From the sequence record NC_073061.1: a stretch of DNA of 45,251 nt, one strand, 5' to 3'. Positions 28,307 to 33,309 of this stretch are shown in pieces; position 1 is the stretch's first letter, and each line of letters opens with the position of its first letter. Source of the stretch: Escherichia phage vB_EcoS-101114BS4. The notes under the pieces are model-generated. The model saw only the letters and a list, made by a program, of their open reading frames with translations. It had not been told where the DNA came from and did no database searches. The translations under genes and the position numbers were made by a program.

Positions 28307-28900
28307 TTATTTAAGTGCGCTAGTCACCAGTGTTTTTTCCATATTGCGGAAGTCTTCCGGCGTCATGAGTATTTTGGACCCATCCTCGCCAGTGAGCACT
28401 ACCATAGGCTGGACTTCTTGATCTGCCACACCGAAATTGGCAGCTTTAACCGTCTTTCCGAACGAGGCCACCGTATCCTCGGCAACGCGCATTGCACTGT
28501 TATACGCATTAATCTCGCCATCCAGGCGCACGGACAGGTCCGAAGGCTTGAACGCGCCGCCGGTCTTGATAGGCCAACCTTTGAGGCTGTCGAATTGCGC
28601 TGCCGTTGTATCGATCTGAATCTCGTCATGCACGGTCATGTAAGACTCGCCCAGCAAAGCGGAATACGCAACCAGATCAACAATATTGTCTTCCTGGTGC
28701 TTACGGTGCTGGCGCACCAGCTTCAGGCAGATCAGGAAGGTCCAGGCTTCTTGCTCGGTAAGGTCGCGACCGGTAAGCGCGTTAAACACGGCAGCGATTT
28801 GCTTCGCGCTGCGTTCTTCTTTCGCGTTGTCATAGCCGTTTTCTTTCCCGCGCTGTTCCATAGTGGTGGCGGCGTTCTTGCAGTATTCAAATGCTTTCAT
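28307..28900 (-). CDS. Hypothetical phage protein
   Basis: 197 aa with AAGGAAA RBS; the N-terminal 85 aa resemble a widespread phage family of unknown function (not verified). Confidence 0.55.
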   Translation of the reverse strand: MKAFEYCKNAATTMEQRGKENGYDNAKEERSAKQIAAVFNALTGRDLTEQEAWTFLICLKLVRQHRKHQEDNIVDLVAYSALLGESYMTVHDEIQIDTTAAQFDSLKGWPIKTGGAFKPSDLSVRLDGEINAYNSAMRVAEDTVASFGKTVKAANFGVADQEVQPMVVLTGEDGSKILMTPEDFRNMEKTLVTSALK

Positions 28901-28950: not shown

Positions 28951-28972
28951 TGCAACCAACCTATTGGTTGCA
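28951..28972. promoter_or_regulatory. Perfect palindrome TGCAACCAA-CCTA-TTGGTTGCA (candidate operator)
   Basis: 9-bp inverted arms with a 4-bp spacer, overlapping the stop codon of the HAD gene and 50 bp upstream of the next start. Confidence 0.6.
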
Positions 28973-29431
28973 AGTAAATTTTGCTACGTTTATAGAATAA
29001 ATTTTCGGGACCAGATCGCCGCACGCGCGACGGATGGCTTCGATATTCTTCGGGCAGTCTTCAATGATGACCAGTTCGGACACGTCCGCATAGCACACCA
29101 TTTTGAACACCGCGCACGCCTTAAACTCTGGCGGCGGGGTGTCATCCAGCATGTGGCGCATAAACAACCGGCCCACCGGGAAGATCTCCAGTTGCTCGGC
29201 GGTGGTGTCCCAACATTCGCGCTGCCGGTTTGTCAGATACGCGATCTCGAAGCCTTGCTCTTTGTACATGCGCAACAGCGGCAGCATATCCATGTTAAGG
29301 TCTTCGCGTACGTGTGCTTTGTGCCACTTCGCCCAAAAGGTTGATTTGGTTTTTATGCCGGGCACCAGGTCAGCACGCGCATCACTTGAACCATTAATAA
29401 CGCCATCCAGATCACAAATCAGTAGTTTCAT
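28961..29431 (-). CDS. HAD-superfamily phosphatase, 5'(3')-deoxyribonucleotidase-like
   Basis: N-terminal HAD motif I LICDLDGVI; 156 aa. Confidence 0.55.
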   Translation of the reverse strand: MKLLICDLDGVINGSSDARADLVPGIKTKSTFWAKWHKAHVREDLNMDMLPLLRMYKEQGFEIAYLTNRQRECWDTTAEQLEIFPVGRLFMRHMLDDTPPPEFKACAVFKMVCYADVSELVIIEDCPKNIEAIRRACGDLVPKIYSINVAKFTCNQ

Positions 29432-29652
29432 TTTAAGCTCTCAATAAGGGTGTGTCGGGCGCTTCGCGCAGTAAAGGAGTTGCATACGAAGTGGCAACGT
29501 TTGGTTATGACAAGCCAACCGGTAAGGTCCAGGCCCATGATGGATTCGGGTCGGGATACACGCATCACGCGGTCGCGGCGCGGGTCAATGGAGAAGTCCC
29601 GTTGCATTTGGTCCACTACCGCGGGGTCGCGGTCAACGACTAAGATATTCAT
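29428..29652 (-). CDS. Hypothetical protein
   Basis: 74-aa ORF with GAGAGAG RBS, translationally coupled (ATGA overlap) to the downstream gene. Confidence 0.5.
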   Translation of the reverse strand: MNILVVDRDPAVVDQMQRDFSIDPRRDRVMRVSRPESIMGLDLTGWLVITKRCHFVCNSFTARSARHTLIESLK

Positions 29653-30118
29653 GTAGTTCTCTCTCGCTCATTATTTCAATTTGTGCGCTGCCGTTTGGCG
29701 GCGCTTCATCAAATATTATCAATTGCTGGCACTTGTTATTGCTCGGCCCAACTTCGCCGGTCACAGCATGGATGAATCGCACACGCCAGTCCAGAAGAAT
29801 TATCATATTGGCAGTCTTCCGGGCCAGCTTCGCCCACTTCGTTGACGTGTCCTGATTCAGTAGCATGACAGTACGGCGTCCGTGCGCAGCGCACTCGACC
29901 CACGGCAGCGGATCGGAGTACGGCGGATTGCACCACTTCCACCCTTTCAACTCTGACCAGTCCGCCTCAAGCGCGCTATGCTCCGCCGTGAAGTAGCGCG
30001 GTAGCAGGTGATTGGTGTCGCTTGCCGCCATATCGTAACGGAATCGGTATTTCTTACGAAGCGGTTTAAATAAAGCTGGCGGCGTACGCCAGCTATCTTT
30101 TTGCTCACTCTTCGTCAT
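29633..30118 (-). CDS. DNA N6-adenine methyltransferase, phage Dam-like
   Basis: WCNPPYS (motif IV N-PP-Y) and upstream WRTPPALFKPL, about 160 aa, consistent with the short phage Dam family; start chosen at the ATG at 30118. Confidence 0.6.
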   Translation of the reverse strand: MTKSEQKDSWRTPPALFKPLRKKYRFRYDMAASDTNHLLPRYFTAEHSALEADWSELKGWKWCNPPYSDPLPWVECAAHGRRTVMLLNQDTSTKWAKLARKTANMIILLDWRVRFIHAVTGEVGPSNNKCQQLIIFDEAPPNGSAQIEIMSERELHEYLSR

Positions 30119-30569
30119 TCTGCGGGTCCAGTGCGTATAGGGCAATCTTTTCGTATTTGCCGACTATGCGATGCACGCGCTTTGCGTCCTCTTCACTACG
30201 TGGGCGCGCATCCGGGTAGTAGCTACCCGTCTGAGTATTGTGCCACGCCACAAGCACCAAATCTTTACGATCAACCTTAGACTGTCTACCTTTAGGTCGC
30301 ACGTACTCCTCCGCACGTTTGCAATGTTCCCGCAGCCCTTCGGCAGTGATGCGGTTTAGCGCAACGCTGGTTGTGTATCCGGTGCGCTGCATAATCCCCA
30401 TCAATTCGAAAAGCAGTTCGAAGCGTTCCTCTAACTCCCGGCGCACTTTCTTCTCTCCTTCATATAGCGCCTGGTTGGTGTCCGCCAGCGCGTTCGCGCG
30501 TTCGGCCTGTTCACGGGCTTCGAGGCATTGCGCGGCCCAGTATGCTTTTTCTTCTTGTAAAATTTTCAT
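30105..30569 (-). CDS. Hypothetical coiled-coil protein
   Basis: ATG at 30569 (MKILQEEKAYWAAQ...) with GGAG RBS; the GTG at 30611 lies inside the terminator hairpin and is rejected. Confidence 0.55.
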   Translation of the reverse strand: MKILQEEKAYWAAQCLEAREQAERANALADTNQALYEGEKKVRRELEERFELLFELMGIMQRTGYTTSVALNRITAEGLREHCKRAEEYVRPKGRQSKVDRKDLVLVAWHNTQTGSYYPDARPRSEEDAKRVHRIVGKYEKIALYALDPQNDEE

Positions 30570-30588
30570 CGTGTTGTCTCCAGGTATT

Positions 30589-30613
30589 AAAAAGGGCGTC
30601 CAACCGGACACCC
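30589..30613 (-). terminator. Internal intrinsic terminator in the leftward operon
   Basis: On the minus strand: gggugucc-gguu-ggacgccc hairpin (one G-U pair) followed by uuuuu. Confidence 0.55.
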
Positions 30614-30649: not shown

Positions 30650-30973
30650 TTATTCATAAAAATTCGGGTCGCGCGCTACATCTACCAGATAAAGGTTGCT
30701 CATTCGGTTGCCGTAGTGCCCTGGCGTGCGCTGGCGACACACAACTGCGAAGCCTGGAGGGATTGTATTGCCGGTTTCGATAATCCACGCCACGCGCGCG
30801 CCAGACAGCTTCTTGCCGTTGCATTCGATACGCGTACCGCCATCGGCAGTGTTAAGGTTGCCAATCTTGCAGCCGGTGGACTTCAGACGGATGACGCCGG
30901 TCTTACTGTCGTAGGTGAATAGTTGGTTAGTCATTGCGACCGAAAAATCGATGGCTTCGAATGTAGTGTTCAT
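30650..30973 (-). CDS. Hypothetical protein
   Basis: 107-aa ORF with GAGGA RBS; a C-terminal H..N..N pattern is too weak to call an HNH nuclease. Confidence 0.5.
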   Translation of the reverse strand: MNTTFEAIDFSVAMTNQLFTYDSKTGVIRLKSTGCKIGNLNTADGGTRIECNGKKLSGARVAWIIETGNTIPPGFAVVCRQRTPGHYGNRMSNLYLVDVARDPNFYE

Positions 30974-31665
30974 TTTAAATTTTCCTCATTGACTGCTATT
31001 GCGAAGCCGCGCGGAGTGAGCGACCGGATTAATTTGGTGCGGGCAGATTTGCCACCGAGGCGACTATACTGCTTCGAGTACCCTTTTTCAACGAATACCG
31101 GCTTTTTCTCCGGCATACGAAAGCCATTGCCAGTCCATAAACAGGTCAGCTTTGGGTATGAATCGCGGTCGTTGATGTATTCCGGGAACAACGGATGTAC
31201 GTCATCCTCCGGCAGATAGCCGCCATATTCCCACGGATCAAACGAGTGGTCTGGCTTGCGCCACTGGGTGGATAGCACACTGCGCGGATTCTCAATCATA
31301 TATGGCACTTCAAAGAAGTCACCCAGGTAAGCGGCAATCTTCGCGGTGCGCACTGCCTTAAGCTGAAAGGCGGGGTCTTTCGCACGCTTGCACGGGAAAG
31401 CTGGCGCACCGCTCACCGCCAGATCCGTACACGGCGGAAACGCGTAGATAATATCCGGCGTGCCGAAATCGCCATTCATCGCGCGGTCCACGAAGTCCAG
31501 ATCGATAAACTCGTTACGATAGCGGATACCGCGACCATAAATCCGGTAGTCAAGGTAAGACCCGTGATCGGCTTCCGAGTAGTTGAAACAGTAGCATTTA
31601 TGCCCCATCTCGGCAGCGCGCTCTATCATCAAGCCGCTGCCGTCAAATAATGACCAGATAATCAC
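30970..31665 (-). CDS. Compact C5-cytosine methyltransferase-like protein
   Basis: GTG start with AGAAGG RBS; motif I SLFDGSG, motif IV FPPCTD (catalytic Cys), motif VI-like ENP; only 231 aa, leaving little room for a target-recognition domain. Confidence 0.55.
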   Translation of the reverse strand: MIIWSLFDGSGLMIERAAEMGHKCYCFNYSEADHGSYLDYRIYGRGIRYRNEFIDLDFVDRAMNGDFGTPDIIYAFPPCTDLAVSGAPAFPCKRAKDPAFQLKAVRTAKIAAYLGDFFEVPYMIENPRSVLSTQWRKPDHSFDPWEYGGYLPEDDVHPLFPEYINDRDSYPKLTCLWTGNGFRMPEKKPVFVEKGYSKQYSRLGGKSARTKLIRSLTPRGFAIAVNEENLK

Positions 31666-33086
31666 TTGCGCACCTTCTTAGCTTTCATGTATTCCATCAA
31701 GTCGTCCTGGATGTCGCGCTTACCATCGCGGCGGTCCGCCACCAGTTCGTCCAGTGTCCCGCGTGCCTGGATAATATAGACGAATACCGGTCGAGGGTGC
31801 CCGGCTTGCATCTGGCGAACTGGCCCGATACGCTCCACGATCTGCGCAAAGTGCTCATAGTTCCACGTATCCGAGAAGATAGCCAGGTGATGACCGCCGT
31901 CCTGCAAGTTAAGGCCGTGACCAGCCGATGCCGGGTGTGCGAACATGATGGGAATCTCGCCCCTGTTCCACGCTTCCATATCCTTATTGCCCTGCTTACC
32001 CTTACCCATCGCAACGCCGTGGGGAAACTTCTTCTTCAGACGTGCCAGGTCGTGCTTGTACTGGTACGCAACGAGCAACGGCGCTCCGTTCAACTCCTCT
32101 ACGATACTTTCCAGCGCGTCCAGCTTGGCGTCGTGAATCTTCTCCCACTCGTCGGTCCGCTCTCCGTCTTCGTCCACCTTATACACGGCACCGGATGCAA
32201 GCTGAAGGCACTTGATGGTCTTAGCCGCAGCGTTCGCCGCTTCCACTGTTCCGCTTTCCAGTTCGGCAAATAGCTCACTCTCAAACTGGTCATAAATCTT
32301 GCGGGCTTTCTTCGGCAGGTCCACGACAACCGGCGTGTAGATTGGCTTGTCACATCCGAAGTATTCAGCCGCGTCCACGGTAAGGGATACATCGGACAGG
32401 CGCTGTTGGATCTCCTTCTCGGAGTTCTTTAGCGGGGCGTGCTGCATAGTGAAGCTGCCTGGCTTAACAGGCTTGCTAATAAACCAGCGATCGGTGAATG
32501 CCTTATAGCTACTGCCGAGTCGTTCGCCACCGTCGACAAACCACGTCTGGCCCCATAGGTCTTTCAGTCCGTTTGGTGCTGGTGTGCCGGTCAGGTTAAT
32601 CCAGCGCCTGACGTGCTTATGTGCGATCGCCGCCAGTGCGCGTGCGCGCTTACTGCCTTGCTTGCTGCGATAGCCTTTCAGCTTAGTGGATTCATCGGCA
32701 ACAACGACCGTAAAAGGCCACTCGTCGCCGCAATACTCGACAAGCCACTCAACAACATCGTAGTTGACACAAACCACGTTAGCGTTGCTCTCAAGCGCCG
32801 CAATGCGGTCCTTCTCTGGCCCGGTGCCGTCTACTACCAGCAGGGCGGGGAATCTCCATTTTTCTTGTTCCGGGGGCCACGTACCGGACGCAACGCGCAG
32901 CGGGGCCAGCACCAGTACGCGGTCCTCCTGGTTGGACAGGATGCCAGTCTGGAACATTTTGTTTAGCGCCCACATAGTCGCGCCGGTTTTACCGGACCCC
33001 ATTGTCGCCCAAATATTGCAGCGCTCATGCTTGAGAATAAACGCGGTTATCAATTTCTGATATTCGCGACGTCGGAATCGTGCCAT
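31662..33086 (-). CDS. SNF2/DEAD-like ATP-dependent helicase
   Basis: Walker A ATMGSGKTG, DExx box VVADESTKL, NLTGTPAPN; 474 aa from the ATG at 33086. Confidence 0.75.
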   Translation of the reverse strand: MARFRRREYQKLITAFILKHERCNIWATMGSGKTGATMWALNKMFQTGILSNQEDRVLVLAPLRVASGTWPPEQEKWRFPALLVVDGTGPEKDRIAALESNANVVCVNYDVVEWLVEYCGDEWPFTVVVADESTKLKGYRSKQGSKRARALAAIAHKHVRRWINLTGTPAPNGLKDLWGQTWFVDGGERLGSSYKAFTDRWFISKPVKPGSFTMQHAPLKNSEKEIQQRLSDVSLTVDAAEYFGCDKPIYTPVVVDLPKKARKIYDQFESELFAELESGTVEAANAAAKTIKCLQLASGAVYKVDEDGERTDEWEKIHDAKLDALESIVEELNGAPLLVAYQYKHDLARLKKKFPHGVAMGKGKQGNKDMEAWNRGEIPIMFAHPASAGHGLNLQDGGHHLAIFSDTWNYEHFAQIVERIGPVRQMQAGHPRPVFVYIIQARGTLDELVADRRDGKRDIQDDLMEYMKAKKVRK

Positions 33087-33090
33087 ATCT

Positions 33091-33309
33091 TTATTCCGCC
33101 TTTTTCCAGACTTCGGTTTCACTGTTCCAATTCCTCTTTGTGGCGTCGTAGTTGGTGGCGTGTCCAATGTGCACACCGGTCGCGCGGAAGCTCTTAAACT
33201 TCTGCCAGCACACTGTCAACGGCAGCGGGTAATTCATGCCTGCGATAAACCATACGCGATCGCCAGGTTTGCACTCGCCCAGCTTGGTGAGTCGGTAATG
33301 TTCTTTCAT
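33091..33309 (-). CDS. Hypothetical protein
   Basis: About 72 aa; start at the third in-frame Met for RBS spacing. Confidence 0.45.
   Translation of the reverse strand: MKEHYRLTKLGECKPGDRVWFIAGMNYPLPLTVCWQKFKSFRATGVHIGHATNYDATKRNWNSETEVWKKAE

What the first reader, a model, noticed from the sequence alone, without database searches (positions are those of the whole stretch)
30970..31665. Unusually compact C5-cytosine methyltransferase-like protein
The protein has motif I (SLFDGSG), the catalytic PC motif (FPPCTD) and an ENV-like motif (ENP) in the canonical order and spacing, but is only 231 aa with a GTG start. Characterised DNA C5-methyltransferases that I know are around 300 aa or more because of the target-recognition domain. 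A catalytic core with a minimal recognition domain suggests relaxed or novel specificity, action on an unusual substrate (single-stranded DNA or nucleotides), or a non-methylating function derived from the fold. It is co-operonic with a Dam-like enzyme and a HAD nucleotidase.
Basis: partly seen in the sequence, partly recalled or inferred. Interest (0 to 1): 0.65.

Follow-up and report, generated by a model that had tools for sequence, protein, structure and literature searches.

The report
Compact phage Dcm-like cytosine methyltransferase
The 231-residue gene is a real but already annotated member of a very large family of unusually small phage DNA cytosine-5 methyltransferases; a relative has been shown to make 5-methylcytosine, so the finding is ordinary except that nobody has shown how so small an enzyme chooses its DNA site.

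Summary
It carries the motifs FDGSG, FPPCTD and ENP. The window is a Dhillonvirus coliphage genome. Near-identical proteins (97-99.6%) in public records are already annotated as C-5 or 'Dcm-like' cytosine methyltransferase.

The protein belongs to PHROG 757 (E 1e-81). This compact family (about 225-250 aa) turns up in 1508 phage records and more than 2800 protein clusters. The gene is under strong purifying selection (dN/dS about 0.03).

The protein is 53% identical over its full length to the Dcm of phage KarlJaspers. That Dcm's near-twin from phage K42 was shown by LC-MS to put 5mC on retron Ec86 msDNA and to trigger that defence. Its mutated residues C82, E128 and K175 correspond to C79, E125 and K172 here.

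So compactness is a family trait, not an anomaly, and a non-methylating role is unlikely. Sequence specificity remains open: CCWGG is assumed in the literature, not measured. So does the way a conserved 50-residue insert plus a 16-residue variable loop stands in for a recognition domain. Verdict: already known, low interest.

The parts
30970..31665 (-). Compact DNA cytosine-5 methyltransferase gene (231 aa, GTG start), PHROG 757 / 'Dcm-like' phage family
31633..31653 (-). Motif I, SLFDGSG (residues 5-11), SAM-binding glycine loop after strand beta-1
   Evidence: F7, G9, S10 and G11 are invariant in 38 relatives. Pfam PF00145 aligns positions 4-94 of its model to this N-terminal half in relatives. 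hhalign pairs it with DLFAGIGG of E. coli Dcm.
31423..31440 (-). Motif IV, FPPCTD (residues 76-81) with the catalytic cysteine C79
   Evidence: C79 is invariant in 72 diverse relatives. It aligns with C82 of KarlJaspers/K42 Dcm, one of the residues mutated in the inactive Dcm-mut.
31285..31293 (-). Motif VI, ENP (residues 125-127), counterpart of the ENV motif; E125 would protonate cytosine N3
   Evidence: E125 and P127 are invariant and N126 is over 90% conserved. E125 aligns with E128 of K42 Dcm.
31108..31257 (-). Conserved family-specific segment (residues 137-186) in the place of a classical target-recognition domain; contains K172, T174 and W177
   Evidence: It is as conserved as the catalytic blocks across 72 diverse sequences (mean top-residue frequency 0.58-0.68 against 0.64-0.65). 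K172 aligns with K175 of K42 Dcm. Its role in DNA binding is inferred.
31060..31107 (-). Variable loop (residues 187-202), the only hypervariable stretch after motif VI; candidate specificity loop
   Evidence: Mean top-residue frequency 0.34 and lower pLDDT of 73-81. Two main types exist, GYS (this protein) and NPGW (KarlJaspers/K42). Its role is inferred.
31000..31059 (-). C-terminal conserved block LGGKSARTKLIRSLTPRGFA (residues 203-222), probable motif X helix closing the SAM pocket
   Evidence: It is the most conserved block among close relatives (0.90). Helices are predicted at 208-214 and 219-229. The resemblance to motif X (GNxVxxP, or RSWSVP in DNMT3A) is recalled from memory and was not tested.
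31662..33176 (-). Upstream SNF2-type DNA helicase gene, translationally coupled to the methyltransferase (4-nt overlap)
   Evidence: PF00176 1.2e-10 and PHROG 62 6e-156. Coordinates.
30650..30973 (-). Downstream HNH-like (homing endonuclease-like) ORF abutting the methyltransferase stop codon
   Evidence: PHROG 99 3.5e-15. Annotated 'putative HNH/homing endonuclease' in phages jat and GeorgBuechner.
29633..30145 (-). Dam-like N6-adenine methyltransferase in the same gene block
   Evidence: PF05869 1.3e-36 and PHROG 111 2e-55.
28961..29431 (-). HAD-superfamily phosphatase (polynucleotide kinase/phosphatase-like) in the same gene block
   Evidence: PHROG 415 2e-36 and a weak PF03767 match. The DLDGV motif is visible in the translation.

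Best explanation
The gene encodes an active, stand-alone ('orphan') SAM-dependent DNA cytosine-5 methyltransferase of the compact phage family PHROG 757, the family labelled 'Dcm-like'. It is made from the replication-gene operon, translationally coupled to the SNF2 helicase. It uses the standard C5 mechanism: C79 attacks C6 of a flipped-out cytosine, E125 protonates N3, and the methyl group comes from SAM held by the FDGSG loop. The product is 5-methylcytosine in replicating phage DNA, and incidentally in host DNA. Instead of a 100-200-residue recognition domain, the protein has a conserved 50-residue segment plus a 16-residue variable loop, an arrangement most like the small-TRD DNMT3 catalytic domain. 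The likely benefit is protection from host type II restriction. The cost is that such methylation can be sensed by retron Eco1/Ec86. The recognition sequence is not established. CCWGG is the leading candidate. Shown here: the ORF, motifs, fold, family membership, purifying selection and homology to the tested enzyme. Shown elsewhere: 5mC formation by a 53%-identical homologue. Inferred: activity of this particular protein, its target site, the anti-restriction role and the DNA-reading role of residues 137-202.
Against: The window protein itself has no Pfam or NCBIfam hit at E<=1. Neither it nor the family profiles match any solved C5-MTase by sequence. No activity data exist for this protein or for any Dhillonvirus orthologue. 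CCWGG specificity was assumed from the name 'Dcm' in the retron study. msDNA from dcm+ MG1655 carrying an empty vector had low 5mC. That is odd if a CCWGG enzyme is sufficient, and it leaves room for a different site. The variable loop is GYS-type here but NPGW-type in the tested enzyme. K176 of the tested enzyme is L173 here. The motif II position is N28 here but D in over 90% of distant relatives.
Confidence: 0.8

Rival explanations
1. It is an active DNA C5-methyltransferase, but its specificity is not CCWGG. The site could be shorter or relaxed (two or three bases), a different motif set by the GYS-type loop, or a preference for hairpin or single-stranded DNA.
For: There is essentially no classical TRD; only a 16-residue variable loop follows motif VI. 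The loop type differs from that of the tested K42/KarlJaspers enzyme. In the retron study the host Dcm of MG1655 did not give high msDNA 5mC whereas the phage enzyme did. The closest structures are DNMT3A/B, which read only CpG.
Against: Segment 137-186 is conserved across hosts and phage families, which argues for one shared mode of DNA reading. Relaxed methylation that creates R-5mC would expose the phage to McrBC/Mrr in the K-12 hosts on which relatives are propagated (established knowledge). Mutating either C of the msDNA CCTGG abolished defence.
Confidence: 0.25
2. It transfers a group other than methyl (for example carboxymethyl from Cx-SAM), or starts a hypermodification pathway.
Confidence: 0.03
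3. It is an RNA (tRNA) m5C methyltransferase of the DNMT2 type, or an inactive DNA-binding relic.
Against: DNMT2 scores below the DNA enzymes. The catalytic residues are invariant and dN/dS is 0.03. The homologue methylates DNA.
Confidence: 0.03

Closest known systems
Phage K42 / KarlJaspers (Bas06) Dcm, the retron Ec86/Eco1 trigger (Wang et al., bioRxiv 10.1101/2023.08.16.553469; published per PMC13158370 as Cell Rep 2024;43:114857)
   Same: Same family and architecture: 236 vs 231 aa, 53% identity end to end, and identical spacing of the catalytic Cys, Glu and Lys. Both are orphan enzymes in small virulent coliphages that also carry a Dam-like gene.
   Different: Different phage group (Drexlerviridae, genus Hanrivervirus, vs Dhillonvirus). 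The variable loop is NPGW-type vs GYS-type. K176 corresponds to L173 here. The window gene is directly coupled to the helicase gene. Only the K42 enzyme has been tested.
Dhillonvirus orthologues already in GenBank (phages jat, GeorgBuechner, Oekolampad, WFI and others)
   Same: 97-99.6% protein identity and the same gene order of helicase, MTase, HNH, then Dam. They are annotated 'C-5 cytosine-specific DNA methylase' or 'Dcm-like C5 cytosine methyltransferase'.
   Different: Nothing of substance. Some records call it hypothetical or start it 15 nt upstream.
Mammalian DNMT3A/DNMT3B catalytic domain
   Different: Only 12-16% identity. The DNMT3 domain is about 50 residues longer after motif VI, works as a DNMT3L-assisted oligomer, and carries PWWP/ADD domains. 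No evolutionary link was tested.
E. coli Dcm (CCWGG) and classical type II C5-methyltransferases (M.HhaI, M.HaeIII; Pfam PF00145)
   Same: Same fold and the same catalytic motifs I, IV and VI. Possibly the same target site as Dcm.
   Different: 231 aa against 472 (Dcm) or about 330. There is no large TRD. hhalign of the family profile against Dcm aligns only motif I (probability 0.3%). The window protein does not reach the Pfam threshold. 'Dcm-like' is a functional label, not orthology.

Membership tests
PHROG 757 compact phage DNA methyltransferase family | Significant full-length match to the family profile | tested here: met
   E 1.2e-81; residues 1-229 on profile positions 15-218 of 247.
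PHROG 757 compact phage DNA methyltransferase family | Family-typical length of about 225-250 aa with conserved C-terminal blocks (YPKxTxxW, LGGKS..TK.IRSLTPRGF) | tested here: met
   (median 234 aa among fetched members of 200 aa or more).
DNA cytosine-5 methyltransferases (Pfam PF00145 / C5-MTase superfamily) | Class I SAM-MTase fold closest to C5-MTases | tested here: met
DNA cytosine-5 methyltransferases (Pfam PF00145 / C5-MTase superfamily) | Motif I FxGxG, motif IV PC with catalytic Cys, and motif VI ENV, in that order | tested here: met
   FDGSG 7-11, PPC 77-79 and ENP 125-127. C79 and E125 are invariant in 72 relatives. V is replaced by P in motif VI.
DNA cytosine-5 methyltransferases (Pfam PF00145 / C5-MTase superfamily) | Score above the Pfam gathering threshold | tested here: not met
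   The window protein has no hit at E<=1. 25 of 38 relatives hit weakly, a few above the cutoff (28.5, 25.4 and 24.7 bits against 22), and only over motifs I-IV.
DNA cytosine-5 methyltransferases (Pfam PF00145 / C5-MTase superfamily) | Motifs VIII (QxRxR), IX and X in the C-terminal half | tested here: inconclusive
   QWR at 134-136 and RSLTPRGFA at 214-222 look like motifs VIII and X by eye. No profile alignment covered this half, and residue-level structural alignments were not available.
DNA cytosine-5 methyltransferases (Pfam PF00145 / C5-MTase superfamily) | Large variable target-recognition domain between motifs VIII and IX | tested here: not met
   Only 104 residues follow motif VI. The segment is conserved apart from a 16-residue loop.
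DNA cytosine-5 methyltransferases (Pfam PF00145 / C5-MTase superfamily) | Catalyses 5-methylcytosine formation in DNA | not testable with these tools
   Shown for the 53%-identical K42 enzyme by LC-MS, not for this protein.
E. coli Dcm orthologues (CCWGG-specific) | Sequence orthology to Dcm, including its TRD | tested here: not met
   hhalign probability 0.3%, with only motif I aligned; 231 vs 472 aa.
E. coli Dcm orthologues (CCWGG-specific) | Methylates the inner C of CCWGG | not testable with these tools
   The retron paper assumes this. Its support is indirect: mutations of the msDNA CCTGG abolish defence.
Restriction-modification system methylase | Adjacent cognate restriction endonuclease | tested here: not met
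   The neighbours are a helicase, an HNH homing-type ORF, Dam and a HAD phosphatase. No REase was seen in four other contexts.

The most novel reading that the evidence does not exclude
PHROG 757 may be the smallest natural DNA C5-methyltransferase architecture. In this reading, a conserved 50-residue insert plus one short variable loop, perhaps working through DNMT3-like dimerisation, reads the DNA in place of a TRD. The GYS-loop subgroup, which includes this Dhillonvirus enzyme, would then have a specificity different from the CCWGG assumed for the NPGW-loop K42 enzyme. If so, the family would offer a minimal 5mC writer tunable through its loop, and it would explain why the BASEL study found no simple link between phage methyltransferase genes and restriction resistance.
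Probability: 0.2. Interest if true: 0.5.

Novelty: already known. Interest (0 to 1): 0.22.

Why it matters
As a gene call it adds nothing. Orthologues are annotated in dozens of Dhillonvirus genomes, and a family member has been characterised as a 5mC-forming enzyme and as the trigger of retron Eco1.

The residual value is this. A roughly 230-residue DNA C5-methyltransferase present in about 3% of sequenced phages still has no measured recognition sequence, no solved structure and no explanation of how it reads DNA without a recognition domain.

Settling that would inform three things: predictions of phage sensitivity to restriction and to retrons, the interpretation of phage methylomes, and the design of small 5mC writers.

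Tried and rejected
- **Sequence searches of solved structures.** Searches with the protein and with two family profiles found no C5-MTase, only chance hits at E>0.2: an FGE-like stretch of ToxD, and SDR Rossmann folds.
- **hhalign of the family profile against E. coli Dcm.** Only motif I aligned, so motifs VIII-X could not be mapped by profile.
- **NCBIfam.** No hit.
- **Longer relatives (317-453 aa).** I scanned them for fused domains and found no Pfam domain. BFVD shows two giant helicase-containing proteins with a similar domain, which I did not follow up.
- **A helicase link.** I considered a functional MTase-helicase link because of the 4-nt overlap. Other phage groups place the gene among unrelated early genes, so the adjacency looks lineage-specific.
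- **Motif statistics.** CCWGG is not avoided (O/E 0.92), which is compatible with several readings and not decisive.
- **Erwinia jumbo phages with CCWGG methylation (PMC11780129).** Host methylases confound the result, and family membership of their MTases is unknown.
- **Not obtainable.** The afdb50 fold library was unavailable. The genome scan with the diverse alignment failed for lack of conserved words. The Cell Reports version of the retron paper is not held.

Full report
**Observation**

The window is a complete Dhillonvirus-type coliphage genome. The 3.2 kb around the finding is 99.6% identical to Escherichia phage vB_EcoS-CHD5UKE2 and matches 159 phage records.

The ORF at 30970-31665 on the minus strand is real: 231 aa with a GTG start. 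An in-frame TAA lies 15 nt upstream with no start codon between, so the GTG is the only start that keeps motif I (sequence). The GTG overlaps the stop codon of the upstream SNF2-type helicase gene by four bases (GTGA), and a GAAGG Shine-Dalgarno-like element precedes it. That points to translational coupling.

- SLFDGSG, residues 5-11
- FPPCTD, residues 76-81 (31423-31440)
- ENP, residues 125-127 (31285-31293)

The gene lies in a single minus-strand block. In order it holds DNA polymerase A, a VRR-NUC nuclease, the SNF2 helicase, this gene, an HNH-like ORF, an unknown ORF, a Dam-like methylase (PF05869, 1e-36) and a HAD phosphatase. The only good terminator-like hairpin on that strand lies upstream of the helicase, at about 33330. 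The 'co-operonic' statement is therefore reasonable.

**Is it more than chance?**

Yes. Against the Dhillonvirus orthologues in phages jat and GeorgBuechner, the gene shows 45-56 synonymous but only 6-7 non-synonymous differences (dN/dS 0.03).

A search of 5.8 billion proteins returned 2882 relatives, nearly all 225-250 aa. A profile search of 1.84 billion cluster representatives gave 1930 clusters at E<=1e-3 and 180 at E<=1e-30. tblastn found the protein in 1508 of 50,697 phage records. These include Drexlerviridae, Dhillonvirus, Klebsiella siphoviruses, RB49-like and rV5-like myoviruses, and Vibrio and Arthrobacter phages.

C79, E125 and P127 are invariant in 72 diverse relatives. F7, G9, S10 and G11 are invariant in the closer set.

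**What it is**

By sequence the protein is far from classical enzymes:
- It has no Pfam or NCBIfam hit at E<=1.
- Neither it nor two family profiles match any solved structure.
- It does match PHROG 757, 'DNA methyltransferase', at 1.2e-81.
- 25 of 38 relatives touch Pfam PF00145, a few above the gathering score, always over model positions 4-94, which cover motifs I-IV.

**Link to an experimentally tested enzyme**

A preprint identified a 711-bp 'Dcm-like' gene of phage K42 as the trigger of retron Ec86 (bioRxiv 10.1101/2023.08.16.553469; a later review, PMC13158370, cites the published version as Cell Rep 2024;43:114857). K42 is 95.4% identical to BASEL phage KarlJaspers. The findings were:
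- All four escaper phages carried dcm-disrupting mutations.
- Expressing Dcm raised 5mC in purified msDNA by LC-MS.
- A C82A/E128A/K175A/K176A mutant did not.

I fetched KarlJaspers (MZ501090). Its bas06_0055 is a 711-bp 'Dcm-like C5 cytosine methyltransferase'. The window protein aligns with it end to end at 53% identity (E 1e-84). C82, E128, K175 and K176 fall on C79, E125, K172 and L173. The family therefore has a member with demonstrated DNA C5-methylating activity.

**The compactness**

It is a family trait. Median length is 234 aa, against 324 positions in the Pfam model and 472 aa for E. coli Dcm. Only 104 residues follow motif VI.

In classical enzymes the region after motif VIII is a hypervariable recognition domain. 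Here residues 137-186 are as conserved as the catalytic blocks across 72 diverse sequences. Only residues 187-202 vary, and pLDDT dips there. That loop comes in two main forms. The GYS form is found here and in most close relatives. The NPGW form is found in KarlJaspers/K42.

I infer, but cannot show, two things. The conserved segment would provide generic DNA and flipped-base contacts. The short loop, possibly with oligomerisation as in DNMT3, would provide whatever specificity exists.

**Specificity**

The literature calls the enzyme Dcm-like and assumes CCWGG. The evidence is indirect. Changing either C of the msDNA CCTGG abolishes defence. On the other hand, msDNA from dcm+ MG1655 without the phage enzyme had little 5mC, which is not what a simple identity with host Dcm specificity predicts.

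Two points favour a CCWGG-type or at least pyrimidine-5mC site:
- K42 Dcm was not toxic in MG1655 lacking the retron.
- Dhillonvirus relatives are propagated on K-12. K-12 carries McrBC, which cuts R-5mC DNA but not C-5mC-WGG (established knowledge).

The genome holds 150 CCWGG sites with no avoidance (O/E 0.92). This is compatible with protection by methylation but is not decisive. I rate CCWGG as the leading candidate only.

**Biological role**

No restriction enzyme accompanies the gene, either here or in the four other contexts I examined:
- a T1-like contig
- RB49/JEP8-like myoviruses, where it sits among early genes near Alt-type ADP-ribosyltransferases
- an rV5-like contig with a Lar restriction-alleviation gene nearby
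- an Oxalobacter prophage with a second methylase, an SSB and a CI-like repressor

A pattern scan of one genome per species found only 14 loci, mostly in metagenome-assembled genomes. The family is therefore essentially phage-borne.

This fits an orphan protective methylase. The known cost is that retron Eco1 senses the methylation. The BASEL paper notes that no simple pattern links phage methyltransferase genes to restriction resistance (PMC8594841), so the protective role remains an inference.

**Comparison with the known, and novelty**

Orthologues 97-99.6% identical are already deposited and annotated as 'C-5 cytosine-specific DNA methylase' or 'Dcm-like C5 cytosine methyltransferase'. The protein is a member of PHROG 757 and of the C5-methyltransferase fold superfamily.

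It is not an orthologue of E. coli Dcm (hhalign probability 0.3%). It does not meet the Pfam threshold and it lacks a classical TRD.

It is already known. What is not known is the recognition sequence and the structural basis of DNA reading in this minimal architecture. Interest is low (0.22). There is a modest chance (about 0.2) that the GYS-loop subgroup has a specificity of its own.

Noticed in passing
window, whole genome: CTAG is strongly depleted (11 observed vs about 60 expected from a Markov model). CCCGGG is absent (0 vs 7.2), GAATTC is low (4 vs 11), and GATC and GGCC have O/E of about 0.7. This is a palindrome-avoidance pattern alongside two phage methylases.
   Followed up: no
window 30105-30611 (-): This 168-aa ORF matches PHROG 10530, labelled 'DNA ligase', at 9e-88. 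It has no Pfam domain and is far too small for a ligase, so the label looks wrong. Most GenBank records call it hypothetical.
   Followed up: no
window 28961-29431 (-): The 'HAD nucleotidase' is a 156-aa HAD phosphatase (DLDGV motif) that matches PHROG 415, 'polynucleotide kinase'. It looks like the phosphatase part of a Pnk-type end-healing enzyme without the kinase domain.
   Followed up: partly
window 30650-30973 (-) and the stretch to 30611: An HNH-like ORF abuts the methylase stop codon. Many relatives (Oekolampad, WFI, jat, GeorgBuechner) carry an extra ORF of about 243 bp between it and the next gene that this window lacks. This is indel variation around a putative homing endonuclease.
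   Followed up: partly
BFVD entries A0A6J5SE15 (1397 aa) and A0A6J5NPY6 (1126 aa): Two giant uncultured-phage proteins, one annotated 'Helicase/UvrB, N-terminal' and one uncharacterised, contain a domain structurally similar to this compact methylase (TM 0.60-0.67, 21-27% identity). This is reminiscent of the helicase-methylase gene overlap in the window.
   Followed up: no
L009 3947-5073 (Oxalobacter formigenes prophage-like region): A family member lies directly next to a second small DNA methyltransferase (PHROG 954), followed by an SSB and a CI-like repressor. This paired orphan-methylase arrangement recalls the Dcm-like plus Dam-like pair in the window.
   Followed up: partly
family alignments A1/A2, position 28 of the window protein: The residue after strand beta-2 (motif II, expected to bind the SAM ribose) is Asn in the window protein and in all 38 close relatives, but Asp in over 90% of more distant family members.
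   Followed up: no
window 28307-28900 (-): This 197-aa ORF has a DUF6378 domain (4e-09) and matches PHROGs labelled 'phosphofructokinase'. That label is probably also mis-propagated.
   Followed up: no
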